64,000 bases of DNA, from assembly GCA_043228905.1 (NCBI GenBank), contig JBHGNT010000020.1:9238001-9302000 (forward strand), read 5' to 3'. A program made the translations under genes and the position numbers. Shown here piece by piece: positions 1 to 51,700 of this stretch. Position 1 is the stretch's first letter; every line of letters starts with the position of its first letter. The notes under the pieces are model-generated. The model saw only the letters and a list, made by a program, of their open reading frames with translations, was not told the origin of the DNA and did no database searches. The stretch comes from Azolla caroliniana (lineage: Eukaryota > Plantae > Polypodiophyta).

Positions 1-812
1 TGTTGGCTCACCCGATATCGTTCTAGTCGGATTTGAACCCGAGTCGGTTCGGCTTCGGATATATGTATTGTTGAACTTGCTCGAATTGACTACGGTAACC
101 TGAGGGACAGAACCGACTGGTCTTCCCGAATGTCGCCGAGTCGGAGTGAGCCCGGTTCGCTTCGGATATATATGCCGAATACCGATTATTGAAACCGATT
201 ATCTGGACCGATTCGGCTTCGGGTGACTGCAGCGACGAGAGAGACGGATCCGACTGATCCTCCCGAATGTCGATCAGCCAGATGAAGCACGAATTTGGGT
301 TGTTGTCAAAGTTGCACAAGGGGATTTCACCTCGAGCGGTTACGATCACAAGGGACAGAGTACAACCTGCTGGCTTACTCCAAGCAAGGGGATCTAATGC
401 GATGAGGTGCAAACCTCGTTTTTGTTCTTCTTCTCTCTTTCTTCGAATGACGCAGGAAACCGAGTGCAGAGACGACGGCCGACAGCGGATTGAAGGACCG
501 ACTACTGTGCAGGCTCTGATACCAGATGTTGGAAGCAATGTCGTCAGTGCGGAAGATCTTGAAGCACTCGATTCCTGTTTATTCCCTGTGTATGACAGAA
601 TGTAGGTCGTTGCACAGAGAGAGAGAGAGAGAGAGAGAGACACAAAAGACTCTTTATTTCACAAAGCAATAATACAACAACCAACCTCACAAAGAGGTTA
701 CAAGGTCACTATATATAGTGACCGACTTAGGGCAACTACCCTTTATGCTAATTACATAAATGGTCTAAAACGGGATGGTGTGAATACGTCCATTATACAC
801 ATGTATTCGACA
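1..812 (-). mobile_element. 5' end (LTR 527-812, tRNA-iMet PBS 513-524, 5' UTR) of a Copia copy inserted into the RT of Copia A; runs off the left edge
   Basis: 1-812 matches 9879-10690 with no difference seen. LTR has TG...CA ends. GCTCTGATACCA is the reverse complement of the PBS TGGTATCAGAGC. The host RT frame breaks at ATRPDI exactly at the LTR edge. Confidence 0.9.
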
Positions 813-2068
813 GATGTCAGGCCGTGTCGCGACCATCAGGTACATAAGGGAGCCGACTGCCGGTGCATACGGTACCGACTTCATATCTTCCCCCTCCGAA
901 CCGGATGTCGGGCAGTCTCGCTGAGAGAGCCGAAGATTCATAGGGAGTGGGGTTGAAGCAGATTTGGCTGATTGCATGTTGAAGCGTTCCAAGACACGTC
1001 CGATATAGTCGGTCTGAGACAAAAAAAGATGTCGTTTATCGCGATGCCGACTAATCTTCATGCCAAGGATGTGTCGTGCCGGACCGAGGTCCTTCATGGC
1101 AAACTTCAACCGCAGTTGCCGAACGAGATCGGCAAGTTCGCCCGCGTGGCGTCCAGAAATTAGCATGTCGTCCACGTAAATGATGAGGAAGATGGGTGAT
1201 CCATCTCGAGCTGTGTTGGTGAAGAGACAATGGTCCTCATCGCTTTTGGAGAAGCCGATTGATTGGATGAAGTCGTCGAACTTCTTGTACCATTGTCGCG
1301 GTGCCTGTTTGAGGCCGTATAGACTCTTCCTGAGTCGGCAGACTAGATGTTCTTGGCCAGTTGCCACGAAGCCTTTTGGCTGCTCCATATAAATTTCCTC
1401 CTCGAGATCACCATGGAGGAAGGCTGTTTTGACATCTAGCTGAATCAGCTCCAAGTTGTCAGCTGCCACGACGCCGAGCAGAAGACGAAGGGTTGTCATT
1501 TTCACCACTGGTGAAAAAATCTCGTCGAAGTCGACGCCATATTCTTGTCGGAAGCCCTTCGCAACTAATCTGGCCTTGTACTTTGGGGTGGTCGAATCAG
1601 ACGTCTCTTTTAGTCGATAAACCCACTTGCAAGGAAGAGCACGTCGGTTCCTAGGTAATTCGACCAGATCCCAAGTCTTGTTTGCCCGGATGGAGTGCAT
1701 TTCCGACTCCATCGCCAGATGCCAGGTGGCCGAATCGACAGATGTCGATGCTTCTTCGTAAGACGTCGGTTCGCCGGCGTCGGTGAAGAAAATTCCAGGA
1801 GAATACCTCTCCGGAGGTTGCGACAGTCTCTCGGATCGTCGAGGTATGATTGGACTGGTCGCATCGGGTATCGAGGTCGGATGGTCCGAAACCGAATCAT
1901 TCGGCTGTGCCGAGTCAGAGTTGTCCGAGTCGGTAGTATAAGGTTCAGCTACCCGTGAAGCTGACCGTGTGTTGAGAGCGGGGCCTTCTTGAAGGGTCGG
2001 CACATCGGAGAATGTTACCCTTCGGACTTCGATCGGTTTTTCGACTGATGGATTCATAGCCGACTCGT
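813..2068 (-). CDS. Copia A reverse transcriptase (continuation of the polyprotein)
   Basis: Resumes in frame as ESAMNPS after removing 2069-7669 and one TSD copy. Motifs KARLVAKG, QLDVKTAFLHG, YGLKQAPRQW, YVDDML. Confidence 0.95.
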
Positions 2069-2761
2069 TGTCGTGAAGATTTTCGTCCATAGGCGGAAAC
2101 CCGAGCGGAGCAAGCAAACCCGCGATGTGCAACGTTGCACATCACCATGTTGTATTTCTATTTATCGATAGTGATAAGTATGGTGCTAGAAATGCACCTT
2201 AGGATTTGTAAAGTGTAAAGGTGATGTGCTTTTGCGCGCACATCCACGTGAGAGAGAGAGAGATAGGTACATAGTAGTTCGTGTAGAGATGGGAGTTAAG
2301 ACCCATCCTTCCCACCTCCCCTAAAATCAAGGGAAATATCCCCATTGATTGAAAGGGGATATTTTGTAGCACCTTTGTGTAACGGTCTTCCCTCCTTGTG
2401 CTATAAAGGGAGAGGAAGAGCACCATTGTGGGGGTTGCCTTATTTTGAGTGTGAGTGAGGTATACCATTTCGTTTTAGGGTTTCGTTTAGGGTTCCTTAG
2501 TTAGGGTTTCTTTTCTTCTTCGTCGGATTAGGGTTTCGGGTTTATCTTAGTCGTTTGGTGCGGCCTACGCGGCCGCCATTTTGTAATGGGGTTTCGGTTC
2601 TAATATATCTTGTTGAGCATTTGGCCTCCATCTTCCTCTTGTTCATTCTTTCTCTTCTTGTGCTAAGCTCCATTCCGAAGTCCTATTCCTTCTCCCCTTC
2701 TCCTTAGTCCAAGACCCCCGTGGTCCCGCCCTTCTCCACGCACGCGCGTAACAACGCGACA
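2069..2761 (+). repeat. 5' LTR of the Gag-only element
   Basis: Direct repeat of 6977-7669. TATA-like CTATAAA at 2401-2407; TTAGGGTT(T) motifs at 2475-2536. Confidence 0.95.
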
Positions 2762-2765
2762 TCTT

Positions 2766-2783
2766 TGGTGAACCCGACGTGAA
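2766..2783 (+). promoter_or_regulatory. Primer-binding site complementary to tRNA-Trp
   Basis: TGGTGAACCCGACGTGAA is the reverse complement of the plant cytosolic tRNA-Trp 3' end (TTCACGTCGGGTTCA-CCA, recalled from memory); it lies 4 nt after the LTR. Confidence 0.88.
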
Positions 2784-2803
2784 AGGCGGCAAGGGAGAAA
2801 GAG

Positions 2804-5800
2804 ATGGAGGAAGGCTTCGACTTCGAGGAAATGATGACAAAGATCTTGATGGACGCCGGACGGAAGAGGGCGAGGCGAGAGGCGGCTCAACAAGCGGTCG
2901 AAAGGGTGGTCCGTCTAGTCGGCCGGTTCGATGGGAAGGAGGTCCCAAAATTTTTGAGAGCCTACGATGCGGAAATGACGAGGATGGGCGTGGACGAGGC
3001 GACGAGGCTAGAGTTCTTTCGTCGAGCGGCGGCCGCATCAAAGTACGAGGAGGTCAAGGAGCTCCAAGAAGCTCACGAATCGTGGGAGTCCTTTGAAGGG
3101 GCTCTAATGGAGGCATACGGGTGCGCGGAATCGGAGGTAAGAGGTCGGCGAGAGTTCGATCGGTGGGTGGCGTCGGCGAGGCGCCATCGGAGCGCAATAG
3201 AGGCATTCCGAGAGTTCGAGCGTCGTTTCTCTCAACTCTCGGAGTGGGAACGAAGATCGGTGGGGGCGGACAAAGTCCTCCTATTTTTGGAGACGGTCCA
3301 TCATGAGGAAAGGACGGACATCATGTTCGAGCTTCAAGACGATTATGGGGCGCATGGTCTCACCGAGGAGTGGCCCGAAGTGGAATGGGTGTGTCGGCAA
3401 CATGAGGCGAGGCGGTCGGACACAACACGGCCCGCGAGCGGGGGAGAAGAGAGAGCGACGACCGACTACGCCATGCCGCCGGACGAGAGCTCATCGCGAA
3501 CCGGTTTGGAGGGGCTCGACCTACAAGCGCTAATACGGGAGGCGTGCGGGCTCGTAATGGCGAAAATCGAAGCCGAAGAATGGCTTATTGCGGGGTCGGG
3601 CCCGAGCGGATCGGAGGACGCGGAGGAAGGAGCTTCCTCACACATGGAGGACGGGGCCTATGCGGAGGCCGAAAGAGAATGGTACATCGGTACCACGGGA
3701 GAGGGTGCGGAGCGAACCGCCCTCTCGACATGGGGGAAAAGAACGACCGGGGACGAGGTCGGGGACGGTGAGGCGGCGATCGCCTATTCGAGCGGACATG
3801 GCGGATTCGGGACACGGTGGCCCGAATCATCGAGTACGGAGGAGACAAGCGGCGGTACCGCAACCTTCCACGCACCGGTTCAAGAGACCACGGCGGCCGG
3901 CCCGAGCGCCCGCGTGAGACCGAGGGAGAAGAACGGTGGTGGCGGCAAGGCGGGCAACCGAGACAACGGTAAGGAGACCGCGGAAGAGGTGGCGGCAAGC
4001 ATAACCGATGCTTGCATATACGGAGGCGGGGTAGCCACGGACAACGACGTCCGAGCGGAGGTGGCTACGGACATTACATCGACGAGCGGCGGTCCCGCGA
4101 CCTTACACGCGTCATTCCTAGAGATCACGGCGGCCGGCCCGAGTGCCCGCGTAAGACCTATGGTGAAAGGCGGTGGCGGTGGCAAGGCGGGCGACCACGG
4201 CGTCGACACGAGAGAAGGTGCGGAGCAAGCGACCCTCTCATCTCGGGGAAAAAGAGCGGCCATGGACGAGGCCGATATCTACGGAGCGATGGACGCCACT
4301 TCGAGAGTGGGCGGAAGTTTCGGGACGCGGTTGCACGAAACGTTCTACGAGGATTTCGCGAGCATACTCGAGGCTTGCGAAATGGAGGAGGAAGAGGAGA
4401 CGAGCGTCGGTGTCGCGACCTTCCACACACCGGCCCTAGAGGCTTCGGCGGTCGGCCCGAGTGCCGGCACGAGACCTAGAGCTACGGACGGTGGCGGCGG
4501 CAAGGCGGACAACCGAAATGAGGACGAGACCGGCGAAGAAGAGGCGGCGGCAAGCATACTCGATGCTTGCGAAACCGAAGACGGGGTAGCCACGGACGAC
4601 GATGTCCGAATGGAGGTGGCTACGGACGAGAGGAGTGGTGGTGTCGCGACCTTCCACACACCGGTCCTAGAGACTCCGGCACCCGGCCCGAGAGCCGGCG
4701 AAAGGCCTAGAGTGACGGACGGTGGCGGCGGCAAGGGGGGCAACCTAAACGACGACGACATGGGAGAGGGTGCGGAGCGAGCAACCCTCTCGTCTTGCGG
4801 CGAATGGACGGCCAAGGATGAGGCCGGTGACTACAAAGCGGAGAGCGCCACTTCGAAAGTGGGCGGAAGATTCGGGGCACGGCGGCCCAAAACATCGAGC
4901 GGAGAGGAGGCGAGCGGTGGTGCCGCGACCTTCCACACACCGGCCCTAGAGGCTTCGGCGGTCGGCCCGAGTGCCGGCACGAGACCTAGAACGACGGGCG
5001 GTGGTGGCGGCAAGGCGGGCAAACAAAATGACGCGGAGAACGGCGAAGAAGAGGTGGTGGCAAGCATACTAGAGGCTTACGGAATCGGAGATGGGGGAGC
5101 CGCGGACAACGACGTCCGAACGAAAGCGGCTACGGAGACAACAAGCGGCGGTGCCGGGTCCTTACCCACACCAATCCTAGAGGCTCCAATGGCCGGACCG
5201 AGTGCCGGCATAAGGCTTAGTGCGACGGGAGGTGACGGCGGCAAGGCGGGCAACGGAAACGAGAAGGAAGATTGGAGCGGACGGAGGCAAGACCCCTTGA
5301 CACCGGGGCCGGAGACTTCGGCGGTTGCGCTCGAATGCCAACGTGAGACCGGAGAGATGGGCGGTGACCGTGAGAAGGTGAGGCCCGGAGAGAGCGCATA
5401 CGAAGACGAGTATGCGGGGCCCGGAATGGGCGTATACGGTGGGTCCGACGGAGAGGACCGGAGCGGAAACGAGGAGAGAGTCGGGAACCGACCCGACCGG
5501 AATACGGCACGGAAGAGGAAGAGAGTAAGGGCCGGCGAACCGGGCCCAAACCGAAGGAAGCCGGCTAGACCGATTGGCCGGTTACGGTTGCGGTTACGGT
5601 TACGATGGGAGCCGGTAAGCGCGAGATGGAGGCTAACCGGGCACGACGACCATGGTTCGGGGGAAAAACGGAAACAAACGAGACCCTCCATACCCACTCT
5701 AGAGACTACGGCGGTTGCGGATCAACATAAGACCGGAGAGACGGCGGGTGGCGGCGAGGAGTCGGAGGCCGGAGCGTACGAGGTTACCGGAACGGATATC

Positions 5801-7000
5801 CGGTACGAGATGGTGGACGGGTGGGTCCAAGACGGCGAGCCCGTGTCGGAACGGGCTACGGCGACAAAGGAGGAGAAGACCGACACGGAGGTCGGATCTA
5901 CGGCGGAAGAGCGAGACGAGATGCATGCAATACGGCCGATGGAGGGCCAAGAGACAAGCATGCCTACGAAGGAGCCACATCGAGCGACCGAAGATGACGG
6001 TCGGATCACGCCTTCGAGAGGCGAATACGAGGAGGAAGGCGGCGACGACAAGACCTGGCACGATGCTAGGGAAGATTGGTGGGAAGAGGTGGCCTACGGA
6101 GAGGCTAAGACCGGCGGCCACGAAGATAAGGCCCGAGAGGGATCCTCCACACCGGCTATAGAGACTCCGGCGGTCGGCGCGAGTGCCGACGTGAGACCAA
6201 GAGTGGCGGACGGTGGCGGCGAGGGGACGAAGGCCACAACGGATGAAGGCACCGAGAGAGGCATACGGGAGGTCGCGGAGAACGAAGATGTATGCGCCCA
6301 AAAGAACGAACACGACATCACGAAGGATGTGTGCGGTCGAGCGGACCAAGAGGGCCAAGAGGGTGTTCCTCCGAGCGAAACGGAGGTCGGGGAAGAAAGG
6401 TACCTTTCCGAAAGGGTACGCGAAGAGGAGCGGAATGCGAAACGTGCAATGCGGCCGCATGAGGGCCAAGCAACGAGCACGGGAACGATGGTATGCTCTA
6501 CGGCGAGAGAGCACGGCAAGCACGGGAAAGGCGGAATCCGGCGTGCAACCGGAGAGATCGGGAGAGCATCCGGAGGCTATACGAGGCGGACAAAAGAAGA
6601 GCAACCGGGTCGGCAACGGCGTTCGGGAGGACCGATCGGGGAAGAAGGCGCGGGCATCGGAAACGGCGGTCCGGATGTAGACGGTGGTTCAAAGAATCAC
6701 GATGGACGTGGCGGATCGGGTGGAGGCAACGACTCGGCGAACGTTGTCAAGTGTGGCGGATCGGATGGAGCCGACGGTTCGAGACCATTCGGTGGAGATG
6801 GTGGGCCGGAAGGCGACGGTGGTTCGTGTGGACGGGGTGGACTTGCTCGAAGTGGAAGACAAAGCCGGGCAAGCCCACGAGGTTGTCAAGGGCTCGGTTG
6901 GCCGCCTTGGCCGAAAATCTCGCGTTTTGTCCCCTTTTGGCACATACCGGTGGATGTGCGGTTAGGTGGGGGCGGATGTCGTGAAGATTTTCGTCCATAG
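2804..7000 (+). CDS. 1398-aa protein: N-terminal Gag/capsid-like domain plus long acidic G/A/E/T-rich repetitive tail
   Basis: Uninterrupted ORF from just after the PBS into the 3' LTR. N-terminal ~200 aa look helical and Gag-like (GRFDGKEVPKFLRAYDAEM...WESFEGALMEAYG). No protease, RT, RNase H, integrase or CCHC motif visible. Confidence 0.8.
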   Translation: MEEGFDFEEMMTKILMDAGRKRARREAAQQAVERVVRLVGRFDGKEVPKFLRAYDAEMTRMGVDEATRLEFFRRAAAASKYEEVKELQEAHESWESFEGALMEAYGCAESEVRGRREFDRWVASARRHRSAIEAFREFERRFSQLSEWERRSVGADKVLLFLETVHHEERTDIMFELQDDYGAHGLTEEWPEVEWVCRQHEARRSDTTRPASGGEERATTDYAMPPDESSSRTGLEGLDLQALIREACGLVMAKIEAEEWLIAGSGPSGSEDAEEGASSHMEDGAYAEAEREWYIGTTGEGAERTALSTWGKRTTGDEVGDGEAAIAYSSGHGGFGTRWPESSSTEETSGGTATFHAPVQETTAAGPSARVRPREKNGGGGKAGNRDNGKETAEEVAASITDACIYGGGVATDNDVRAEVATDITSTSGGPATLHASFLEITAAGPSARVRPMVKGGGGGKAGDHGVDTREGAEQATLSSRGKRAAMDEADIYGAMDATSRVGGSFGTRLHETFYEDFASILEACEMEEEEETSVGVATFHTPALEASAVGPSAGTRPRATDGGGGKADNRNEDETGEEEAAASILDACETEDGVATDDDVRMEVATDERSGGVATFHTPVLETPAPGPRAGERPRVTDGGGGKGGNLNDDDMGEGAERATLSSCGEWTAKDEAGDYKAESATSKVGGRFGARRPKTSSGEEASGGAATFHTPALEASAVGPSAGTRPRTTGGGGGKAGKQNDAENGEEEVVASILEAYGIGDGGAADNDVRTKAATETTSGGAGSLPTPILEAPMAGPSAGIRLSATGGDGGKAGNGNEKEDWSGRRQDPLTPGPETSAVALECQRETGEMGGDREKVRPGESAYEDEYAGPGMGVYGGSDGEDRSGNEERVGNRPDRNTARKRKRVRAGEPGPNRRKPARPIGRLRLRLRLRWEPVSARWRLTGHDDHGSGEKRKQTRPSIPTLETTAVADQHKTGETAGGGEESEAGAYEVTGTDIRYEMVDGWVQDGEPVSERATATKEEKTDTEVGSTAEERDEMHAIRPMEGQETSMPTKEPHRATEDDGRITPSRGEYEEEGGDDKTWHDAREDWWEEVAYGEAKTGGHEDKAREGSSTPAIETPAVGASADVRPRVADGGGEGTKATTDEGTERGIREVAENEDVCAQKNEHDITKDVCGRADQEGQEGVPPSETEVGEERYLSERVREEERNAKRAMRPHEGQATSTGTMVCSTAREHGKHGKGGIRRATGEIGRASGGYTRRTKEEQPGRQRRSGGPIGEEGAGIGNGGPDVDGGSKNHDGRGGSGGGNDSANVVKCGGSDGADGSRPFGGDGGPEGDGGSCGRGGLARSGRQSRASPRGCQGLGWPPWPKISRFVPFWHIPVDVRLGGGGCREDFRP
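3698..5255 (+). repeat. In-frame higher-order tandem repeat inside the 1398-aa ORF
   Basis: Three ~510-550-bp units starting near 3698, 4211 and 4763. Each carries two copies of ATFHTPxLExxAxGPSAxxRPxxxxGGGGKA separated by alternating spacers. Confidence 0.85.
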
Positions 7001-7669
7001 GCGGAAACCCGAGCGGAGCAAGCAAACCCGCGATGTGCAACGTTGCACATCACCATGTTGTATTTCTATTTATCGATAGTGATAAGTATGGTGCTAGAAA
7101 TGCACCTTAGGATTTGTAAAGTGTAAAGGTGATGTGCTTTTGCGCGCACATCCACGTGAGAGAGAGAGAGATAGGTACATAGTAGTTCGTGTAGAGATGG
7201 GAGTTAAGACCCATCCTTCCCACCTCCCCTAAAATCAAGGGAAATATCCCCATTGATTGAAAGGGGATATTTTGTAGCACCTTTGTGTAACGGTCTTCCC
7301 TCCTTGTGCTATAAAGGGAGAGGAAGAGCACCATTGTGGGGGTTGCCTTATTTTGAGTGTGAGTGAGGTATACCATTTCGTTTTAGGGTTTCGTTTAGGG
7401 TTCCTTAGTTAGGGTTTCTTTTCTTCTTCGTCGGATTAGGGTTTCGGGTTTATCTTAGTCGTTTGGTGCGGCCTACGCGGCCGCCATTTTGTAATGGGGT
7501 TTCGGTTCTAATATATCTTGTTGAGCATTTGGCCTCCATCTTCCTCTTGTTCATTCTTTCTCTTCTTGTGCTAAGCTCCATTCCGAAGTCCTATTCCTTC
7601 TCCCCTTCTCCTTAGTCCAAGACCCCCGTGGTCCCGCCCTTCTCCACGCACGCGCGTAACAACGCGACA
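6977..7669 (+). repeat. 3' LTR of the Gag-only element
   Basis: Direct repeat of 2069-2761 with no difference seen by eye. Confidence 0.95.
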
Positions 7670-7673
7670 TCGT

Positions 7674-9816
7674 TGAACACAACGTCCGAACTTCGAACGA
7701 TTTGTCTGCGTTCGGGGTCCCAGAGTCGGTATCCCATTTCGCCGTCTGATCCATATCCAAGGAAAATGCATTTCCTGGACCGAGGTGCAAGTTTTCGGCG
7801 ATCATCTTTCGGAATGAGGGCGTACGCCTCGCATCCGAAGATCCTCAGCTTGTCGTAATTCGGCTTACTGCCGATCCATAGTTCCTGAGGAATTTGAAGT
7901 CCTAGAGGTCTACTTGGCGACATATTGATTATGTGTACTGCCGTGAGTAGAGCCTCTGCCCAGAAGCCATCCGACAGTCCGGAGTGTTGGAGCATGGAAA
8001 CTATCCTTTCTTGGATTGTCCGATTCATTCGTTCGGCAATCCCGTTTTGCTCCGGACTGTGTGGTGCCGTAAATTCACGTCGGATGCCGCGTTGTCGGCA
8101 GAATTTGACGAATTCATCGGATTTGAACTCTCCCCCATTGTCTGTCCGAAGGCATTTCAGCTTTCGGTCGGTTTGATTTTCTACCATAGCGAGCCAATCG
8201 GTGAAGATCGAGAAGACACGATCTTTGGTGCGAATTGGATAAGCCCACACCTTTCGAGTCGAATCGTCAATAAAACTGACGAAGTAAGAGGCACCGCCTA
8301 GAGACTGATGCGGCATTGGGCCACAGACGTCCGAATGGACTAAATCGAGAGGTCTCGTTTCTCTTGGTGCTGATGTCGGGTGTGATGCGGCTACTTGTTT
8401 GCCATACTGGCAATGCTCGCAGAATTGATGGTCCGAGAAGGAGAGTTTGGGGATGTATCCGGCGCTAGATAGGTGCGTGATGCCGGCCTTGCTGAGGTGT
8501 CCTAATCTTCGGTGCCATAATGATGACACAGGAATATCCACCAAAAACAGGTTACCCTCTCTGAGCGTAACATGTAACGGATACAGTGAGTGTATCTTGG
8601 GTCCTCTAGCAAGCAGGAGGTTCCCCCTGTGGAGTGTCCACCCTCCCGAAGAAAAACCGGCACGAATGCCGTCTTCATCTAGTTGTCCGACTGAGATCAA
8701 TGGCCTTGTGAGCTCGGGTACATGTCGGACATTGTGGAGTACAAGTGTAGAGCCCCCTGCAAGGTTGAGCTCTACTGTGCCGATTCCGACGATGTCACAG
8801 TGTTGTGAGTTGCCGACTCGAACTGAGTCGGAGTGACGGATCGTATATTGCCGAAATTGGGATCGATGAGGAGTCACGTGAAATGACGCGCCCGAATCCA
8901 AGAGCCATGTGCTCGATTCTTCAGTCGTGAGTAGAACTTCTGATCCGACTGGATTTTCTATTGATAGTATATTCGGGTCGTCCGGTAGTACATCAGCTGA
9001 GAAGCTGACGTAATTGATCTCCTCATGCCGGCCACTCTTCTTGTTGTTCTTGTTCTTGAGTGCGCGGCAGTCGGTTTTGATGTGTCCGGGTTTCTTGCAA
9101 TAGTTGCAGATTCGGTTATCCCGTGACTGGCTCCGTCTTCGCTGATTGTTCGGCGGCCGTGAGGAATCTCGTCCTCGTATGTTCGATCGGTCTGTCGAAC
9201 CTTGTACTACGTAGGCGTCGTCTGTTGAGTCTTTGGCGAAAGACTTTCTCCGAGCTGCTTCGGTCAGGATTGCGCTCGTGACTTCGGAGTATTTAACAGC
9301 CGTGGTTGACGCGTTGCACACGGTTGTGACGAAAGTTTCCCATGATGGGGGAAGGCTGCTCATGAGTATCATTGCTCTGAGTTCATCCTCGATTGCCGTC
9401 CCCTGTGACGAGATTTGGGAGCTTATGCTTTCGTACTCATTGAGGTGTGCTTGGACCGAGTCGGATTCTTTCATCCGCAAGTTGTAGAGGCGCCGGATCA
9501 GAAACATCTTCGTTGCGGCGACCTTCTTTTCGTAAGTGTCCGACAGTGTTTTCCACAGTTCGAATGCTGTCGTACACGATTGCACCGTGAAGTATACCGA
9601 TTCCGATAGGTGCATCCGAATCGTGGCGCGGACGATTCTGTCCAGCTTCTGCCACTCAATTGGTTTGTATCCTTCTGGAGGTTCTTCATTTTCGATGGGA
9701 TCGATTTGCCCCTTGACTATGAGATAGTCCTGCATTTGCTCCTTCCAGAAGTTAAAGTTCGATCCATCGAACTTTCGTAGACTCATTTCTGACGAGCCGG
9801 ATGTTGATGCCATCAA
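7674..9816 (-). CDS. Copia A gag-protease-integrase (5' part of polyprotein)
   Basis: Zinc knuckle CNYCKKPGHIKTDC, protease LLDSGAS, WHRRLGH..CEHC, integrase HSDVCGP/DNGGEF/AERMNRT. No stop codons up to the insertion at ...SDVVFN. Confidence 0.95.
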
Positions 9817-11449
9817 ATTTGGTTTCGGTTGACGAAGCTCGGTTCGGAGTTGACTACGAATCTTGTTGGAGTGCAGCCTGTTGGCTCACCCGATATCGTT
9901 CTAGTCGGATTTGAACCCGAGTCGGTTCGGCTTCGGATATATGTATTGTTGAACTTGCTCGAATTGACTACGGTAACCTGAGGGACAGAACCGACTGGTC
10001 TTCCCGAATGTCGCCGAGTCGGAGTGAGCCCGGTTCGCTTCGGATATATATGCCGAATACCGATTATTGAAACCGATTATCTGGACCGATTCGGCTTCGG
10101 GTGACTGCAGCGACGAGAGAGACGGATCCGACTGATCCTCCCGAATGTCGATCAGCCAGATGAAGCACGAATTTGGGTTGTTGTCAAAGTTGCACAAGGG
10201 GATTTCACCTCGAGCGGTTACGATCACAAGGGACAGAGTACAACCTGCTGGCTTACTCCAAGCAAGGGGATCTAATGCGATGAGGTGCAAACCTCGTTTT
10301 TGTTCTTCTTCTCTCTTTCTTCGAATGACGCAGGAAACCGAGTGCAGAGACGACGGCCGACAGCGGATTGAAGGACCGACTACTGTGCAGGCTCTGATAC
10401 CAGATGTTGGAAGCAATGTCGTCAGTGCGGAAGATCTTGAAGCACTCGATTCCTGTTTATTCCCTGTGTATGACAGAATGTAGGTCGTTGCACAGAGAGA
10501 GAGAGAGAGAGAGAGAGACACAAAAGACTCTTTATTTCACAAAGCAATAATACAACAACCAACCTCACAAAGAGGTTACAAGGTCACTATATATAGTGAC
10601 CGACTTAGGGCAACTACCCTTTATGCTAATTACATAAATGGTCTAAAACGGGATGGTGTGAATACGTCCATTATACACATGTATTCGACACTTTGCGCCA
10701 ACCTTCTGCGGTTGTGAGTGTTTTTCTGACTCGCCACATGGCACGCTCTCCACAGCGCGGTCCGTTGGCGAAAATCGCGTGGATGTTCACCCATTCACGT
10801 GGTTAGGGTGTCTGTGTTCTTATGCTAGTGTCATGTTGATCATGGATGGCCAGTGGGTGTTGGCATATTGTTTGGTTGGGCAACGCTATGCCTTGGGGGT
10901 CATCGAGGTCAGCGGGGTGTGATTCGAGTGTCGTTGCAATGAGGTCCTTGGACGTCATTCCATTTCCCGTTTGGAAGGAGACGATGTGCTTGTTGGGCGA
11001 TAGGTGTCATGAATAGTACTGAGATAGAGAAGGAATTAGTACTAAACGAAGGATTAGTACTATGAGAGGTGTGGAACTTCTTCGAGAGAAGGAAGAAGTG
11101 AGCGAGACAGAGAGAAAGAGAGAGATTGAGAAAGAGAGAAAGAGAGTGATGATAAGAAAGATATGTATTATATGAAGAGAATATACAATGGTGGCTAAAA
11201 GGCTTAAGACTGGCGTTGAACCAATTTGGTTCAACATAATGCCTAGTGCCCTCTTTTATAGTGTTTTCAAGAGTAATCCTGAAGCTTCTAGAATGTTCCA
11301 GAGAAATCTAGAATCTACACTAATTTCCTATAATAAAATGTAAATGAAAATAATGTCCTACGTATTACAATAGATGATCTAATGGTCAAGAGCTCGACCC
11401 ATATAACCTAAGGTCTTGGGTTCGAGTCTTGCCATATCATGACACTATC

Positions 11450-14400
11450 CCCCCTTTAAAACGACGAGTGTCACGAGTCGTCTTGGATTGAGGACCTGGT
11501 TTGTGTGGATATTGACGATGGAAGTCTTCAAGAAGAGCACGAGCATTGGTCACATTCTCGATCGGTTCCCAAGTACGTTCGCTAGGGCTATAGCCTAGCC
11601 AATCGACTAGATAGTAGAGCTTGTTGCGAACAATCTTGGAATCAAGGATGGCGGCAACCTCGTACTCCGGCCCATCTTCAAGCTCGATTGGGGGTGGAGG
11701 TTGGATAAGACGTCATGGGATGGTGCTCTCGTGGTAGGGTTCGAGGAGGGAACTATGAAACACTGGATGTATCCGAAGTTGAGGAGGTAGATCGAGACGA
11801 AAAGCGACATCATTAATCTGTCCAATAATACGGAAAGGACCTAATCGCCGATAATCTAACTTCTCACATGGACGAGTAGTCTTGATGTGTCGTCGTAGCA
11901 GCCACACCCGATCTCCAATATTAAAACTGGATGGAAGTCGATGACGATCCGCGTAGACCTTGTGTGTTTGTTGAGCTTGTTGGAGATGAGTAGATAAATC
12001 CGCTTGTATCTTGCGTAACTGCTCCAGACGATCCTCCGCGCACGGATTTGTGGACACCTCTGGGGTTTCAAGTACACTCCACCAGGGGTGACATCCCATA
12101 TAAGCATAAAATGGCGTAACTTTAGTGGATGCGTGGATAGAGTTGTTATAGGCAAATTCGTCGAAGTGGAGAATATCTGCCCAGTCATCTTGATGATAGC
12201 TGAGAAAGCACCGCAGATACTACTCCAACGTTTGATTTGTTCATTCAGCTTGGCCGTCAATTTGTGGGTGGTAGCCGGAGGAGAGGTTACAAGTGACCTT
12301 GAGCATGTTAAAAAGGTGCTTCCAGAATTTTGACACGAACTGGGGTCCACGGTCGCTGATGATACTATCAGGAAGTCCATGATGCCGACATACTTCACGC
12401 ATGACAATTTCGGCAGTGTCTTCACTAGAGATCTCCTTAGTACATGGCAAGAAATGAGCCATCTTCGTATATCGATCGACCACCGTTAGAATCGCATTGA
12501 ACCCCTTAGAGACTGGAAGATCTGTGATGAAGTCTAGAGCAATGGATTGCCACGGCTTGCTTGGAATTGGTAATGGTTCTAATAAACCATATGGATGATG
12601 CCTTGGCATTTTCGCTCTGCAACATGTATCACAAGTCCGAACAAAATCGTCGACAAATTGTCGCATACAGGGCCACTAGAATGTTCGTTGTACTAAATGT
12701 AATGTTTTAGTACTACCAAAATGCCCAGCTATATATGTGTCATGACAGTTTTGTACTACTCGAAGGCGGCAAGAACCATTAGGAACATACAAAAGTTCTT
12801 TAAAGAAGAGTAATCCATCATGGTATTTGAATTGCCGATAGTCCGTACCTGGTGGTTGCGACTGTGAACACGACGCTCGAGAGGGATCAATTTGTGCTAG
12901 TATAGCTTGGGCGAACGCATCTGTCTTCAAGTCTTCACGTATGGTATCGATAGCGCGGGAATCCATAGGCATGTCAAAGATATGTGTTGCTTGTAGTCGT
13001 GCCGGTCCCAAGATGACTTGTTTTTGGTTATCGAAAGCTGGCTCGCCGGGACGGGGTGCTAGATACGAACGCCGTGATAATGCATTTGCCTTCCCTTGGT
13101 GCCTCCCCGGACGATATGTAATTTTGAAGTCGAAACGCGTGAGGAAGTGGGCCCACCGAGCTTAACGTCGATTCAACACACGAGCATCCTAAAAGTAGGC
13201 AAGATTCTTGTGGTCACTAAATACGGTGACTGGATGAGAGGATCCCTCCAGAAAATGCCTCCATTGCATAAAAGAATCCAGTATTGCCAATAGCTCCTTA
13301 TCATGAATTTCGTAGTTGATTTCGGCGGCGTCAAACTTGCGTGAGTGAAAAGCCACAGGATGTAGCTTCTCATCATTCCCCTGTTGTGACAGAATGCTCC
13401 CCAATGCAAAATCTGATGCGTCAGCTTCGATAATGAATAGTTTTTCCGGATCGACATGAGCTAGAATTGGAGCCGATGTAAATGCCTTTTTAAGACTCTC
13501 GAAAGCCATGTCTGTTTCTTCAGACCAGATGAACGGTTGTCCCTTCCTGGTAAGTTGTGTGAGAGGTAGAACGATCTTTGAGTAATCTTGTATGAACTTC
13601 CGGTAAAAATTGGCAAAGCCTAAGAAGCATTGCACATCCCGCACCGAACGCGGAGTTTGCCATTCTACCACCGTTTTGACCTTAGCTGGGTCCATGGAGA
13701 TGCCTTCTGACGAAATGATGTAGCCGAGAAATTCCACTTGGTTGCACCCGAAACTACATTTTTCCAGCTTTGCATAAAGACCATGTTCTCGAAGTCGTTT
13801 TAGTACTAATAGTACATGAGAATCATGTTCTTCTTGGGTCTTTGAATAAACCAGTAGATCATCCAAATAGATGATCAAACAATCATCCAATAGATCTCGG
13901 AATATATCATTAGCCATGTGCTGGAAGACTGCCGGCGCATTAGTGAGGCCGAACGGCATGACCGTATACTCGAAGTGCCTATGTCTGGTGCGAAACGCGG
14001 TCTTCCATTCGTCTCCTAGTCGGATCCATATGAGGTTATATGCTCCCCGTAAGTCGATCTTCGTGAAGAACCTGACACCATTGATCCGTTCTAAAAGACT
14101 TGAGATAAGGGGAAGACCATACCTATTCCTGATTGTAACCTTATTCAAGCCACGGTAATCTACAACGAGACGAAGCGATCCATCTTTTTTTTTTACAAAG
14201 AAAATGGGCGCGCCGGCTGGAGATTTCGAATGCTGAATGAAACCATTTTCCAAATTCTCCTCTATATAGGCCCGAAGGACTTCCAGCTCGGTTGGTGACA
14301 AATTGTTGATCGGTCCCCATGGCGGCTCTTTTCCCGGTTGTAAATCGATGGGGCAATCGTACGGTCGATGATGAGGAAGTGTGTTGGCTTGTACTTTATC

Positions 14401-15033
14401 GAACACATCAGCGTAATGACGATACTTCTCGAGAAGTTGAATGGTGGATTCTTCTTTAGTGGTGCTGGAGGGGTTTACTGATATTGCAAAGAGGAACATT
14501 TCCTCCTTGCGCCCTTCTTTACGCAACTGACGTAGCGAAATGGTTGCCATCTTCTGAGTTGACCCTTGGGTTTGTCGACACTAGATTTCTCTTGTTCTCC
14601 AATCTATGTCTGGGTTATGTAACTCGAACCACGGTAATCCTAAAACTATAGGATGTTCTGGGATACTAATAATATTAAATGATACTACACATGCTAAGTT
14701 ATCTAGGACAATATTAATGGGCTCTGACTCTTCTATGATATTTCCGGAAGCAATGGGACGTCCATCAATGACTACTTCAGAGGCTGGACACTGGAGTTTT
14801 CTTAGGGATATCTTATGAGCTTAAGCAAATTTCTTATCCATAAAGCAAGAGTTAGCTCCGGAATCTAGGAGTGCTAGGACATGTACTGGAGGGGTACTTT
14901 TAGTACTAACTATTACTTGGGCTACGAACACATCACTAACTTGCTTAGAGGGAATGGAACCACTAATGGGCTGCACAGATCTAGGGTTGTCCAACCAAAC
15001 GGCTCCTATTTTGGTTGGACTTAGTTGTTTAAC
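11450..15033 (-). pseudogene. Tcn1-like pol (PR-RT-RH-INT-chromodomain) in the -1 frame relative to gag; several nonsense/frameshift lesions
   Basis: ALLDSGANSCFMD, YLDDLL, EADASDFALG, IALDFITDLP, LGPFRII..IHPVFH, chromodomain GPEYEVAAILD..YYLVDWLGY..RTWEP. Confidence 0.9.
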
Positions 15034-16178
15034 TCTTCTTCTAACTGACTAAGGACATCAAATTTGTTTGCTAGATTTGGGATATTAGTACTATTAGTAC
15101 TATTAGGACTATCAGATATCCCTACTGAAATAGGCTCGGATTTAGTACAATTAGAACTAGCGACTATTTGGTTTACCTGTCTTCTTGGCCTATGGGGGCA
15201 ATTTATTGCTATATGTCCTGGTCCACCGCAGTAAAGACATAGTCTATTTGTACGGCGTCGCTGCTTTTCTTCTTCGGATAATGGCCCTCGACGACGTGTA
15301 GTCTCAATCTCCATCGGAGTCGGAGTATTCGCTGGAGGCGCATTATATGACTCCCTCGGAAAAGTTCTTGCTACCACTGAGGCGTAGGTGTGCTCTGATC
15401 TTGCCCTCAGCATCTATAGTTGTCGTTCCGAACGTCGCTCAAAGAGGCGGTTGTCACATCTCACCGCGCGACTGATTGCTTCTGTTAAGGACTTTGGCTC
15501 TTCGGGGAAGGTCAATAGTAAATCCTTGACGTCGTTGCATAAACCATAACGGAATTGCTCCATCAATGCTTGATCATCCCAAGGGATATCGGCGGCGAGT
15601 AGGCGAAAATCTGTAGAGTATGCGGAGGCTGGACTGTCACCTTGGTGTAATCGCCGGATTTTGTTGATTGCGGTCCTGATGCTGTCAGTATCTCCGAAAC
15701 ATGCTTTAAACTCACCTAGAAACTCTTCAAAATTGTTGAGTAACGGAGATTCCTTTTCTAATAGTGGAGCGAACCATGACAACGCTGAGCCACTTAACAA
15801 AGTGCCTACTAAACCCACTCGTGATGCATCGGTCGGATATCGGGAAGGATGCATTTGAATAACTAATCGTACCTGGTTAAGGAACCCTCTAAACTGCGAT
15901 CGCATTCCATCGAACTTCGTGGGAATGCCAATCTTGGGTTCCTTATGAATCCCTTGTGTTCCGGGCCCTTGTTGTTGCATCGCTACGATGGTTGCTTCGA
16001 GTTGTTGCACGCGTAACGCAAGTTCCCCATGTTGTTGCGTTTGCTGCTTTTCTAAGGAGATTTGCTGAAGATCCCCCAACAACCGTTGGTTTTCTTGTTC
16101 CAAAGCATGGAACTTCTCCTTCAAGCATTGAAATTCCGAGAAAACAGATTGATATTCTTCAGCGCTAACAGTGGCCAT
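15021..16178 (-). pseudogene. Tcn1-like gag (one in-frame TAG at 15414-15416)
   Basis: KFDGMRSQFRGFLNQ, LSGSALSWF, knuckle CLYCGGPGHIAINC. Confidence 0.88.
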
Positions 16179-16691
16179 GGGATGAAAGAAAAGAGGAATA
16201 AAATATTGATGGAAATGAGAGGGACAGAAGGTAGGGAAAATTGGTTCAAACTGTCATGAACAATACTGAGACAGAGAAGGAATTAGTACTAAACGAAGGA
16301 TTAGTACTATGAGAGGTGTGGAACTTCTTCGAGAGAAGGAAGAAGTGAGCGAGACAGAGAGAAAGAGAGAGATTGAGAAAGAGAGAAAGAGAGTGATGAT
16401 AAGAAAGATATGTATTATATGAAGAGAATATACAATGGTGGCTAAAAGGCTTAAGACTGGCGTTGAACCAATTTGGTTCAACATAATGCCTAGTGCCCTC
16501 TTTTATAGTGTTTTCAAGAGTAATCCTGAAGCTTCTAGAATGTTCCAAAGAAATCTGGAATATACACTAATTTCCTATAATAAAATGTAAATGAAAATAA
16601 TATCCTACGTATTACAATAGATGATCTAATGGTCAAGAGCTCGACCCATATAACCTAAGGTCATGGGTTCGAGTCTTGCCATATCATGACA

Positions 16692-16980
16692 ATAGGAGAC
16701 ATTCACTTATGTGACACCAATCTAGACCGAGGAGGCATTGTGTGTTCATCACTTTGGGTGGGAGTACGCGAACTTGGATTGAGTGGGCGTTGTATTCTGT
16801 CTTGATGTTACACACGAAGGTTCCCAGGCAACGTGATGTGGAACCATCAAAGCCACGGAAGTTGTCATTGCACACTTCGAGGTTTCGGCAACCTAGACGT
16901 CCCCATGTTTCAAAGGAGAAAAGGGTTAGTGATGCTCCTGTGTCAATTACCATCATCAAAGGCATGTCGTCGACACAACA
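16692..16980 (-). pseudogene. Second retropepsin-like aspartic protease domain downstream of the integrase; frame continues at 10999 downward
   Basis: MVIDTGASLTLFS...GFDGS...CLLGLDWC. After removing the Tcn1 insertion and one ATAGG the frame reads ..ECLL-SPNKHIVSFQ. Confidence 0.75.
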
Positions 16981-19900
16981 CTATAGTTGTATTGCTCCTT
17001 CATTCGAGTTGACCACCTTAGCCATGGCTACCGGATGGGTGTGCCCTTGTCGCTTCAATTTCACTTGCGTATTGTGAAGGTCGGTTTCGAGCCGAGCCAT
17101 TCGGTTTTCGGAGGCCTTAAGTTTGGCTTCTACTTCTTGTTGTCGAGCCGTGAGTAGAGCCTCGAGGGTGAGGGGTCCGTAGTAATGCTTGAGCTTGCTC
17201 TCATTGATGAATTCGGAGATATCGAGGCCTTCGAGCGTGCGTAGGCGACATGCTCCTATCTTGGTAATCTACGAGACTACATATGGACCCTCACCACGTA
17301 ACTTACACTTCTTCTTGTGTCGTTGAGAGGCGAATTTGAGGGCCACGTCTCCTTCAGCGAGATCTTTGTTCCTTACTTTATTGTCGTGCCACATCTTTCT
17401 ATTGGCCTTCTCTGCCAAGAGTGCCTGGAAGGCGAGAAGGCGAGTTTCGGTCAGCCGTTCTAGGTTCTCTAGACGTGACAAGAGGTGGTCCCCGTCCCAT
17501 CGTTCTTGTATGGCTATCCTGAGGCTGGGGACCAGGAACTCAATGGGTAATACTGCTTCTTGTCCATACACTAGTTTGAATGGTGTGTAGCGAGTTGCAA
17601 CTTTGTAGGAAGTACGGAAAGCCCATAATGCCGCTTGGAGTTTGATGCTCCAATCAGACCGTGAGGCGGCGATTATCTTTGTGAGCACTGCACATAATAC
17701 CTTATTCGCGCTTTCCGCTTGTCCATTGCATCGAGGGTAATAAGGAGAACTCTTGCGGTGTGTCACCATAAATTAGCCTAGTAGATGTCCTATCACTTCG
17801 TTGAGGAAGTGGGAGCCTTGGTCACTAATGATTTCAAGCGGACATCCAAACCGTACTATGACATTTTCATATTGGAATTTTGGTGGTGCTACACGCGTTG
17901 GCATTAACGCAAGCTTTAGCTTCTACCCACTTGGTAGCGTAGTCAGTGGCAGTTATTATGTATCGATTGAGGTTGGAAGCTAGGCTAATTGGGCTGATAA
18001 AGTCGATACCCCATTTCTCGAATGGTTGCCATGCCACCACCGGGTTTAACGTATTGAAATCCGCTTTTAGTGGGTGTTTGAAACGTTGGCACTCGTCACA
18101 ACAGCATACATACTCGTATGTGTCTTTGAAGAGTGTTGACCACCATAGGCCGAACTGGAGGATCTTGCACGCGGTGACCTCGTGATTGAAATGACCACTT
18201 CCGCTTCCGTAATGAGCTTGTTCGAGGGTGGCGACAACGTTGTGGTCTGTGACACACCTCCGCAATAGATCGTCGTTACCACGTCAGTACAAGTTGCCTC
18301 TGAGAATCATGAAGGGGCCACATTTCTTTAACAAGATACACATGTGTGCCCGAGGTAGTTGTTTGAGGAAGGACGCTCCTTCAGTTAGGACTCGAACAAT
18401 ATCTAATGCCCATGTTGGTACGGTGTCGATCGTGAATAATGCTGCATCTAGTGTTTCATCATCGACCCCAATGGCTTCTTCTCCATTTGGTATCCGGGAG
18501 AAATTATCAGCGAGTACATGGTCTTTTCCTTTTCTCACCACTACCTTGAAGTCGAACTTGAGTAACGTTACGATCCATCATGAGATTCGTCCGGTGGCGT
18601 GAGTTTTATTTACCAGGTAGAGTAGGGCCTGATGATCTACAAAACACGAGAATCGTGACGCTAAGAGGTAGTGGAGGAAATTTTTTACGCTGTAAACCAT
18701 GGCCAAAGCTTCCCGTTCCGTCGTGGAGTAATTTTGTTCCGCGGCGTTTAGTTGGCGACTAGCGAAGGTGACCGGTAGGTCGAGTGCCCCTTCGCCCAGT
18801 TGAGCTAGCAGTGCACCAATCGCAAAGGCGGAAGCGTCGGTGTGAACGTGGAATTCTTTGGTCCAATATGGGGGCTGGAGGATGGGGGCCTTTGTTAGGC
18901 ACTCTTTCAAGAGCTTGAAGGAGTGTGTGCATTCTTCTATCTAAGCAAACTACTTTAGTAGGGCGTAGAGCGGTCTGGCCTTGTCTGCGAACATCTTAAT
19001 GAAGCGTCTATAGCAACCTACGTATCCCATGAACCCTTGTAGTTGTTTCTCGTTCGTGGGAGGTGTCATGTTGAGGATGAGTTTTACTTTTGCCTCATCG
19101 GTCGAGATCCCATGGTGGGACACAACGTGCCCTAATATTAATCCGTGCTTGACCCAGAACTGACACTTGAGTGGGTTGAGAGAGAGTTGATAGGTTTGGC
19201 ATTTTTTGAACGTCAAGCGGAGTAGCGCCAAGTGGTCATGCCACTTCGAATGGCAACATAAGTCGTCAACATAAGACTCCACCCCTTGTCGTAACCTTGC
19301 TGCGAAGATATGGTATGCCGCTCTTTGGTAGGTGCTCAAGGCACTTGTGAGTCCGAAAGGCATCTGCTTATATGCGAACGTACCAAATTCGGTGGCGAAG
19401 GATGTTTTGTGTTGATCCTCAAGTACCACCGAGATTTGGTTGTACCCCAAGAACCTGTCGATGAAGCTATAAGCTTCGGCTCCCACGATTCTCTCAAGTA
19501 GATGCTCGATGTAGGGCACCGGGTAGTTGTCCTTGATGGTGGCTTCGTTGACTTGGCGGTAGTCGACACATATGCGTATTTGGCCATTTTTCTTCGGGAC
19601 AACTACAATCGGGGAGACCCAAGTAGTTCATTTGATCGGGTAGATGATGCCTGCGGCCAACATTTTGTTGATTTCGGCTTTTACTTGTTGGGCATAGTTA
19701 GGATTCATTGGGTGCAGCCTTTGCCGGATTGGGCAGGTGTCGGCTCGCATGGGGATACTATGAGTGACGACCTCGGCTGGGACCCCCTTCATATCGACGT
19801 ACGACCATGTGAACACATCGCTAAATTCTGTGAGGAGGTGATCAAAGACGTCTCCTCGTCCGACTGGAGATCTGCGGCTATGAACACTGGTTTGGAGTTC

Positions 19901-22900: not shown

Positions 22901-23624
22901 AGAAATGGAAGCACTCTTCCCGCTGTCATTTGTGAGGTTTCTCGGATGGTCTATGGGTGCGCGCTCTTTTTCCATCAATGCTATGAGAGTTTGGATGGAT
23001 TGTAGCACTAGTGCGAGTTCGGCGTTTGACGGTGTAGGGGTAGCTTGGTCGGGAGTAGGGGTTGTGCCCATGCGTGGTGGTGTCGGGTGTCGTTGTGTGT
23101 GGGCTTCGTTTGGACTGTCGCTCGTTGTGCTCGAATGCAGTACAGGGTTGTGCTCATGACCTCGGCGATGCATGTGCAACGATGTTTCGAGGAGGTGAAG
23201 TTTTTGTTGCACTCGTGCAAATCTATCTTTCCTTTTCGCCAAAGCGGCTTCGATATCTCGAGTGATGCTTTCTAGTTGTCCTCATTTCGCGAGTTGTACC
23301 GTCCATAGATTGATTTCATGTTCTATCACCCGTAACTCCTACGCGGCGTCTCATATGTGTCGCTCTATGCTAAGTGGGTCTGCCATTGGGCTCTCCTATA
23401 GTGGGGGCGTGTTGAGAGGTGCTTTAGTTCCTAGGCTCGATGGGAGGTTCATGTTTGGTAGCGTCCCTGGAGTTAGCCACCCTCTGTGGTACCAAGTCGG
23501 GTTAGGTGGGACAGCATCGTGTGTTTGGTTGGTTTGGGTGAACTCCTCCTGGCGTGTGGGTCGGGTTTTGAACATCTCTGTCCATGAGGATTCGGCCATG
23601 TTTTCTTGTCAAGCTTTTGTAGGT

Positions 23625-46062: not shown

Positions 46063-46191
46063 ATATGTATGTATATATGTAGGTAGGTAGGTAGGTAGGT
46101 AGGTACGTTACATATGTATGTATGTATGTAGGTACGTACGTACGTATGTAGGTATACGGAAAGCTCTATGTGGAAGTAGGAATGTGTAGAT

Positions 46192-51697: not shown

Positions 51698-51700
51698 TAG

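What the first reader, a model, noticed from the sequence alone, without database searches (positions are those of the whole stretch)
2069..7669. Recently mobile pol-less LTR element encoding one intact 1398-aa Gag + disordered-repeat protein
Seen: apparently identical 693-bp LTRs, a clean TSD, PBS and PPT, and a single stop-free 4.2-kb ORF spanning the whole interior and ending inside the 3' LTR. It has no PR, RT, RH, INT or zinc-knuckle motif. The first ~200 aa look Gag/capsid-like; ~1200 aa are acidic low-complexity sequence with a basic patch (RKRKRVR..RRKP..RLRLRLRLRW). Known: Gag-only non-autonomous elements (TR-GAG) exist, but I know of none with pol replaced by a long in-frame repeat tail. 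Inference: a satellite retroelement that borrows Pol in trans while keeping its own modified capsid protein, e.g. for cis-preferential packaging, condensate formation or interference with the helper.
Basis: partly seen in the sequence, partly recalled or inferred. Interest (0 to 1): 0.85.

Follow-up and report, generated by a model that had tools for sequence, protein, structure and literature searches.

The report
Capsid-plus-tail satellite retrotransposon family
This is a freshly inserted plant jumping gene with no copying enzymes, from an old, diverse family whose single gene joins a capsid domain to a long acidic tail and a tryptophan/arginine end motif; the family likely borrows enzymes from a Phygy-type partner and packages its own RNA, and this copy has shifted the end motif out of frame.

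Summary
The anatomy is real: identical 693-bp LTRs, a 4-bp TSD (TCGT), PBS, PPT and one 1398-codon ORF with no pol match in any frame, inserted into a young Copia. Residues 1-210 fold as a two-lobe retrotransposon capsid. The NCGN TSD, a likely tRNA-Trp PBS and Gag relatives in moss, liverwort and fern point to the Phygy lineage.

One correction: read-through into the 3' LTR is peculiar to this copy. Sister ORFs (1419 aa) stop at the PPT and end in a Trp/Arg motif; here a deletion near 6533-6567 shifts the last ~158 codons into another frame.

It is not a one-off. Capsid + acidic repeat tail + terminal Trp/Arg motif recurs in many subfamilies with capsids as little as 26% identical, which fall on one side of a tree branch away from Gag-protease elements. 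Gag is under purifying selection (dN/dS 0.40); the tail drifts (0.75-0.88) but stays open.

The helper, copy number and expression were not shown. Gag-only (TR-GAG) and Gag-plus-unknown-domain (Quinta) elements are published, so this is a new variant. The scan's earlier notes hold nothing like it.

The parts
2065..2068 (+). Target-site duplication, left copy (TCGT, fits NCGN)
   Evidence: paralogous Copia continuous across the site
2069..2761 (+). 5' LTR, 693 bp, TG...CA; TATA-like hexamer at 2402; three TAGGGTTT telo-box-like motifs at 2476, 2502, 2529
2766..2783 (+). Primer-binding site, 4 bases after the LTR; likely tRNA-Trp (match recalled, not tested); same core in L001 and L002
2804..7000 (+). 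Single ORF, 1398 codons; the last ~158 codons are in a non-family frame and run into the 3' LTR
2804..3433 (+). Capsid (CA) domain, residues 1-210, two helical lobes of Arc/Ty3/Copia type
   Evidence: AlphaFold mean pLDDT 93.8; top 28 of 50 listed VIA rows are retroelement-type capsids, best Z 10.7; dN/dS 0.40 against L002
3839..5294 (+). Six diverged in-frame copies of a ~160-nt unit in the acidic tail (a seventh partial copy at 6148-6221); all spacings are multiples of three
5504..5653 (+). Basic patch, residues 901-950 (net charge +13)
6533..6567 (+). Junction where this copy is a net 109 bases shorter than sister L001; the frame shifts here
   Evidence: loose ends at 6520 and 6533 in run X19
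6703..6858 (+). Family Trp/Arg terminal motif (duplicated WRIGW, then W-x-x-x-W...SKWK), out of frame in this copy
6964..6976 (+). Polypurine tract; the sister 1419-aa ORFs stop at the position matching 6963-6965
6977..7669 (+). 3' LTR, identical to the 5' LTR
7670..7673 (+). Target-site duplication, right copy
1..10690 (-). Host Ty1/Copia element with identical 812-bp LTRs, interrupted between its integrase and RT regions by this insertion

Best explanation
This is a recently inserted, pol-less Ty3/gypsy element of an old family that encodes a capsid domain fused to an acidic repeat tail and a terminal Trp/Arg motif; the family likely borrows RT, RNase H and integrase from an autonomous Phygy-type partner and likely uses its own fusion protein to package its RNA. 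Shown: the LTR anatomy, the capsid fold, purifying selection on Gag, absence of pol and of the zinc knuckle, the conserved three-part layout across subfamilies, and the frameshift in this copy. Inferred: (1) the 5' LTR drives one RNA that is both message and genome; (2) the partner's enzymes recognise the shared LTR ends, PBS and PPT, and the NCGN scar is the partner integrase's signature; (3) the capsid domain assembles particles, alone or mixed with partner Gag; (4) the basic Trp/Arg end replaces the lost zinc knuckle as RNA binder or Pol tether; (5) the acidic tail is a flexible spacer selected for an open frame and at least one repeat core, not for exact sequence or length. This copy would make a protein with a Gly-rich end instead of the motif and would depend on intact sisters.
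For: Partner type: REXdb gives Phygy a 4-bp NCGN TSD (100%) and tRNA-Trp PBS (81%), the only lineage listed with NCGN (PMC6317226, passages and supplement file 3). The TSD here is TCGT, and a second insertion (L002) is preceded by GCGT. Named Gag relatives are from Physcomitrium, Riccia and Adiantum; 13 tree rows carry a Cys/His knuckle or protease motif that no tail-bearing protein has. Capsid. Gag dN/dS 0.40 against L002, p=0.0003. Family: 19 further clusters of 342-719 aa with no Pfam match above cut-off. Of 69 motif hits, 21 of the 23 that are 450 aa or longer carry a whole or partial capsid, the motif lies within 60 residues of the end in 63 of 69, and none has a pol-like motif. 38 of 43 listed cluster members of 500 aa or more carry both ends. 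All 15 tail-bearing capsids in the tree lie on one side of one branch (SH-aLRT 95); capsid identity among 12 full-length members falls to 26%. 14 of 69 motif proteins match the pre-PPT stretch near their end, so no pol follows there. The motif averages 63% identity where aligned, against 48% for capsid and 39% for tail.
Against: No autonomous partner was found: no genome is held, the window has no second copy of the LTR ends or PBS and no other Phygy-type Gag, and two pattern scans were blank. TatI also has 4-bp TSDs and tRNA-Trp. Tail dN/dS is 0.75 against L001 (p=0.25) and 0.88 among repeat copies, and a shifted control frame gives 0.78. Trp has one codon, so a conserved RNA signal would give the same protein motif; with gaps counted as mismatches the motif scores 42%, no higher than capsid windows or the repeat core. 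A copy lacking the motif in frame was still inserted recently. Protein searches favour long open frames; broken relatives exist (L003), and 7 of 24 non-window tail proteins end without the motif. The tree is the quick version, midpoint-rooted, with 38 unlabelled rows. Foldseek gave no hit at E<=0.001. Expression and translation are untested.
Confidence: 0.6

Rival explanations
1. Only the capsid matters as protein. The tail is coding filler that keeps ribosomes on the RNA down to the PPT, which would avoid decay of a message with a very long 3' untranslated region, and the Trp/Arg motif is the translation of a conserved G-rich RNA signal near the 3' end.
For: Near-neutral tail dN/dS with no stops; tail length varies from about 400 to 1200 residues. 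This copy changed frame but stayed open to the LTR. The stretch just before the PPT is read in all three frames among relatives, showing nucleotide-level conservation nearby. Stops in the other frames would by themselves punish upstream frameshifts, so a shared frame does not prove a protein role. Decay triggered by long 3' UTRs in plants is recalled knowledge.
Against: Much shorter Gag-only elements exist without filler (TR-GAG, PMC4350172). Many family ORFs stop right after the motif, short of the PPT. Residues between the conserved tryptophans vary at first and second codon positions. A repeat core is kept at 38-51% identity across subfamilies, near capsid levels.
Confidence: 0.25
2. The tail acts on the host or the partner and not in packaging: the terminal GW dipeptides would bind Argonaute as a silencing decoy, or the bulky tail would poison partner capsids and free its Pol.
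For: 1-3 GW/WG dipeptides fall in the terminal motif of each of 8 proteins counted; the tail is predicted disordered; a truncated Ty1 Gag restriction factor appears among the fold matches. GW motifs as Argonaute hooks are recalled knowledge.
Against: The GW count is low and the context is aromatic and basic, unlike typical hooks (recalled). No listed paper title concerns a retrotransposon-encoded hook (6 papers, listing only). There are no binding data.
Confidence: 0.1
3. A one-off deletion derivative whose interior is open only because of its purine-rich composition.
For: The last ~158 codons of this copy are indeed open in a non-family frame; at the window-L001 distance an open tail is expected 55% of the time without selection.
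Against: Random sequences of the same composition reach at most 690 codons; at 5% divergence an unselected tail stays open 0.6% of the time; many diverged subfamilies keep the layout; Gag is under purifying selection.
Confidence: 0.03

Closest known systems
TR-GAG elements (Chaparro et al. 2015, PMC4350172; abstract in listing, part 2 of 6 of the text, and passages read)
   Same: LTRs, PBS, PPT, TSD, one ORF with a Gag domain, no RT, signs of recent activity.
   Different: TR-GAGs are defined as under 4 kb with 5-bp TSDs, and TR-GAG1 has a 433-aa Gag with a zinc finger. This element is 5.6 kb, has a 4-bp TSD, no knuckle, a capsid that Pfam misses, and 400-1200 extra in-frame residues ending in a conserved motif.
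RLG_Quinta, partner of RLG_Cereba (PMC11302176; passages read)
   Same: Pol-less gypsy element with one ORF of Gag plus a domain of unknown function; an old lineage (28-35 My) with diverged Gag sublineages; proposed to supply Gag while borrowing RT and integrase.
   Different: CRM lineage of grasses with an identified partner. The passages read describe no acidic repeat array or Trp/Arg motif. Homology of its unknown domain to this tail was not tested.
RLG_Sabrina and RLG_WHAM 'semi-autonomous' elements (PMC9744471; passages read)
   Same: High-copy gypsy families lacking RT and integrase, keeping Gag, with variants carrying unrelated short ORFs.
   Different: They keep Gag-protease or replace it; here the protease is absent and the new sequence is fused to the capsid.
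Phygy non-chromovirus lineage (Neumann et al. 2019, PMC6317226; passages and supplement file 3 read)
   Same: 4-bp NCGN TSD, likely tRNA-Trp PBS, Gag related at about 30% to a Physcomitrium protein.
   Different: Phygy elements are 7.7-10 kb with a full polyprotein; this family has no pol, and its capsids form a separate branch.

Membership tests
TR-GAG | LTRs, PBS, PPT and TSD | tested here: met
TR-GAG | Single ORF encoding a Gag capsid domain | tested here: met
   fold; Atlas Retrotrans_gag clusters at 0.93; a direct Pfam scan has no hit
TR-GAG | No RT or other pol domains | tested here: met
   no Pfam match in six frames
TR-GAG | Length under 4 kb | tested here: not met
   5601 bp; the paper's HMM screen kept 1-6 kb; total length of the shorter subfamilies was not measured
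TR-GAG | 5-bp TSD | tested here: not met
   4-bp TCGT against 5 bp
TR-GAG | Two or more copies in the genome | not testable with these tools
   no genome held; indirect support from L001, L002 and thousands of diverged contigs
Phygy lineage | RT/RH/INT phylogeny | not testable with these tools
   the element has no pol
Phygy lineage | 4-bp TSD of form NCGN | tested here: met
   TCGT; L002 left flank GCGT, one side only; definition
Phygy lineage | PBS complementary to tRNA-Trp | tested here: inconclusive
   PBS present and conserved; tRNA identity recalled; no tRNA in the window and no paper hit
Phygy lineage | Full polyprotein, 7.7-10 kb | tested here: not met
   so a Phygy-type satellite, not a Phygy member proper
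Quinta-type autonomous/non-autonomous pair | Gag plus an extra domain in one intact ORF, no RT/INT | tested here: met
   for the family; this copy is frameshifted near its end
Quinta-type autonomous/non-autonomous pair | Identical PBS and LTR termini shared with an identified autonomous family | not testable with these tools
   no genome; none in the window; scans blank

The most novel reading that the evidence does not exclude
An ancient satellite retrotransposon lineage has built its own packaging protein: a capsid with the zinc knuckle replaced by an expandable acidic repeat spacer and a Trp/Arg terminal helix. The protein selects satellite RNA and captures the partner's Pol into satellite particles, the retrotransposon counterpart of phage satellites that remodel their helper's capsid.
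Probability: 0.3. Interest if true: 0.78.

Novelty: new variant of a known kind. Interest (0 to 1): 0.57.

Why it matters
How non-autonomous LTR elements get their RNA and the partner's enzymes into one particle, and why some keep gag, is an open question. This family offers a natural series: the same three-part protein at 600-1400 residues, capsids down to 26% identity, repeat number from one to six, no zinc knuckle, and natural variants that lack the end motif or half the capsid. The proteins are invisible to Pfam, so domain-based TE annotation would leave the family unclassified. If the Trp/Arg end binds RNA or Pol, it would be a new nucleocapsid substitute; if it is an RNA signal, it marks a candidate packaging element.

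Tried and rejected
Whole-genome copy count and partner search: no genome held. Protein scan of viral contigs and PBS pattern scans of viral contigs and genome contigs: no hits. Sequence searches of solved structures with the N-terminus, its profile and the motif profile: no hits. Atlas search with the motif region: no usable hit. Expression: no RNA holder listed; two runs guessed to be RNA tile the element, but one also covers the Copia flank, contigs cannot show expression, and no silent-region or single-copy control was obtained, so expression and copy number stay open. High contig depth at the LTR end/PBS and before the PPT was not used, since other subfamilies or a partner could both cause it. 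The one-base length difference near 6929 seen in all four runs was first read as a lesion of this copy, but P0239 ends in the same way as the window's motif frame, so it is a family variant. Frame sharing of the motif (16 of 24 non-window tail proteins by pattern, none in the window's Gly frame) was rejected as proof of a protein role, because off-frame stops alone would give it. The frame census was not used, as those hits were selected by the motif. P0071 (a repeat protein) was a spurious hit. The bacterial promoter scan is not relevant. No complex was predicted, as no true partner protein was in hand. Literature searches for this layout (listings only unless cited as read) showed no description of it; subscription journals and repeat databases such as Repbase were not searchable.
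Full report
Observation. The element spans 2069-7669 on the + strand. Its LTRs are identical over 693 bp, run TG...CA and are flanked by TCGT on both sides. It interrupts a minus-strand Copia between its integrase and RT regions. That Copia's own LTRs are identical over 812 bp, so both insertions are very recent. The PBS starts at 2766 and a purine tract abuts the 3' LTR. One ORF of 1398 codons fills the interior, while the other frames hold 20-37 stops. In 500 dinucleotide-matched random sequences the longest open frame was at most 690 codons. No Pfam family matches the ORF or the five other frames.

Capsid. An alignment of 65 sequences gave an all-helical model of residues 1-210 with mean pLDDT 93.8. 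The top 28 of 50 listed rows of the wide structural search are retroelement-type capsids: dArc1 Z 10.7, Arc N-lobe Z 8.9 at 1.9 A over 69 residues, Arc C-lobe Z 8.5 at 3.1 A over 81, Copia capsid Z 8.7. Foldseek ranks the Ty3 capsid first but only at E 0.26. The Atlas returns Retrotrans_gag clusters at 0.92-0.93. The domain is under purifying selection: dN/dS 0.40 against L002 (p=0.0003) and 0.22 against L001 (p=0.05).

Lineage. A search of 1.84 billion representatives found 305 relatives at E<=0.001, of which 150 were listed. The distant ones, about 30% identical, include Gag or Gag-protease ORFs; 8 of the 35 proteins scanned matched DUF4100, 3 of them above its cut-off. Four of ten looked up are named from Physcomitrium, Riccia (two) and Adiantum. 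REXdb lists Phygy with a 4-bp NCGN TSD and tRNA-Trp PBS; TatI shares the 4-bp/Trp pair but has no NCGN note (PMC6317226). The TSD here fits NCGN, and so do the four bases before the LTR of a second, diverged insertion, L002. I recall the PBS as the complement of the plant tRNA-Trp 3' end; no call confirmed it. The host is a land plant (PPR gene), probably seed-free by inference from the Gag relatives.

This copy against its sisters. Five proteins of 1419 aa match the window protein almost exactly to residue ~1240 and then diverge. L001 is 98.4% identical over 4094 bases, but the window is a net 109 bases shorter at 6533-6567. The family C-terminus continues in another frame of the window, 92% identical to P0239 over 150 residues. 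Sister ORFs stop at the PPT. The Gly-rich last ~158 residues and the read-through into the LTR are therefore peculiar to this copy among the sequences seen. Whether the junction is shared by other insertions or is an assembly fault could not be told.

The family. Searching with a distant member (P0014, 618 aa) gave 22 proteins, 19 of them new, with no Pfam match above cut-off among 20 scanned. They share the layout capsid, acidic repeat tail, basic stretch, terminal Trp/Arg motif. A motif profile found 69 clusters, all from ENA assemblies and none from a named plant genome. Of the 23 that are 450 aa or longer, 21 carry a whole or partial capsid; the motif is within 60 residues of the end in 63 of 69; none has a pol-like motif. 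Among 75 listed cluster members, 38 of the 43 of 500 aa or more carry both ends; these may be the same copies assembled from several samples. Fourteen of the 69 match the stretch before the PPT near their end, so pol does not follow. Capsid identity among 12 full-length members ranges from 26% to 99.5%. In a quick tree of 66 rows, all 15 tail-bearing capsids lie on one side of one branch (SH-aLRT 95), apart from 13 knuckle- or protease-bearing ones; 38 rows were unlabelled, 11 near-duplicate ids were on the skip list, and the careful search did not finish. Two DNA runs hold 7072 and 6682 contigs that lie on the element, mostly under 99% alike, which fits many diverged copies.

The tail. Six ~160-nt repeats at 64-89% identity lie in one frame with spacings that are all multiples of three. 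Their dN/dS is 0.88 pooled, and the tail against L001 gives 0.75 (p=0.25), so exact sequence is barely constrained in this subfamily. The frame is constrained: an unselected tail stays open 0.6% of the time at 5% divergence, although 55% of the time at the window-L001 distance, and the repeats alone give only 4-8%. A model of the 624-aa member P0173 has an ordered capsid, pLDDT under 50 over nearly all of 210-624, and one low-confidence helix at 585-602 over the motif; the 22-row alignment makes this weak evidence of disorder. Across 11 subfamily representatives the motif averages 63% identity where aligned, against 48% for capsid and 39% for tail. With gaps counted as mismatches it is 42%, similar to the repeat core (38-51%) and above the linkers (8-29%).

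Mechanism. Most likely the family is a long-lived satellite of a Phygy-type autonomous element. The LTR ends, PBS and PPT would let the partner's RT and integrase copy and insert it, while it makes its own capsid fusion. Autonomous relatives have a Cys/His knuckle after the capsid; the tail-bearing proteins have none. A basic, aromatic terminal motif is the natural candidate to replace it as RNA binder or Pol tether, with the acidic tail as an expandable spacer (0.6). The main rival is that only the capsid is functional, the tail keeps the RNA translated to the PPT, and the motif mirrors an RNA signal (0.25); single-codon Trp and the three-frame reading of the pre-PPT stretch keep this alive. 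An Argonaute decoy or partner poison is possible but unsupported (0.1). No partner, transcript or protein product was shown.

Comparison with what is known. TR-GAG elements are Gag-only, under 4 kb, with 5-bp TSDs (PMC4350172); this element fails both of those criteria but works like one. RLG_Quinta encodes Gag plus an unknown domain and is an old partner of RLG_Cereba (PMC11302176). Sabrina and WHAM keep Gag-protease only (PMC9744471). A 2026 sugar-beet survey lists 28-29 GAG/PROT-only families that exceed the TR-GAG size range (PMC13570524, passages). Searches showed no description of a Phygy-type satellite or of this capsid-repeat-Trp/Arg layout; the library lacks most subscription papers and repeat databases. 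The scan's own notes gave no look-alike.

Verdict. Real, recently mobile and part of a sizeable family that I did not find described; a new variant of a known kind. Interest 0.57.

Noticed in passing
window 2474-2536 and 7382-7444: Each LTR carries three TAGGGTTT telo-box-like motifs; 6 of the 11 in the whole window lie in these two LTRs. The role of telo-boxes as plant promoter elements is recalled.
   Followed up: no
proteins P0213, P0223: Subfamilies that keep only the N-terminal capsid lobe yet retain the tail and the Trp/Arg motif in frame; P0185, P0177, P0179 and P0004 begin at the C-terminal lobe.
   Followed up: no
protein P0208: The terminal motif sits on a 466-aa Asp/Glu-rich protein with no capsid match, suggesting the 3' module can join other ORFs.
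   Followed up: no
window 6940-6976: The stretch before and including the PPT is conserved across subfamilies and read in all three frames at ORF ends, so it is probably a nucleotide-level signal.
   Followed up: partly
window 2804-6997: Interior CpG observed/expected is 1.29 against 0.88 for the window, with GC about 62-64%, so there is little methylation-driven decay.
   Followed up: no
window 1-10690: Host Copia with identical 812-bp LTRs, split by this insertion; an 81-87% identical Copia lies inverted at about 46189-51698.
   Followed up: partly
window 11005-16694, 17270-23280, 59687-63106: Further LTR elements: a gypsy with 98% LTRs, a second gypsy with gag, RT and integrase fragments, and a 3.4-kb element with 98.7% LTRs and only a short pol-like fragment.
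   Followed up: no
window 55187-57220: A 677-aa PPR protein ORF, the only clear host gene seen in the window.
   Followed up: no
protein P0003: A 1518-aa relative with a near-exact internal duplication of about 630 residues, possibly an assembly artefact.
   Followed up: no
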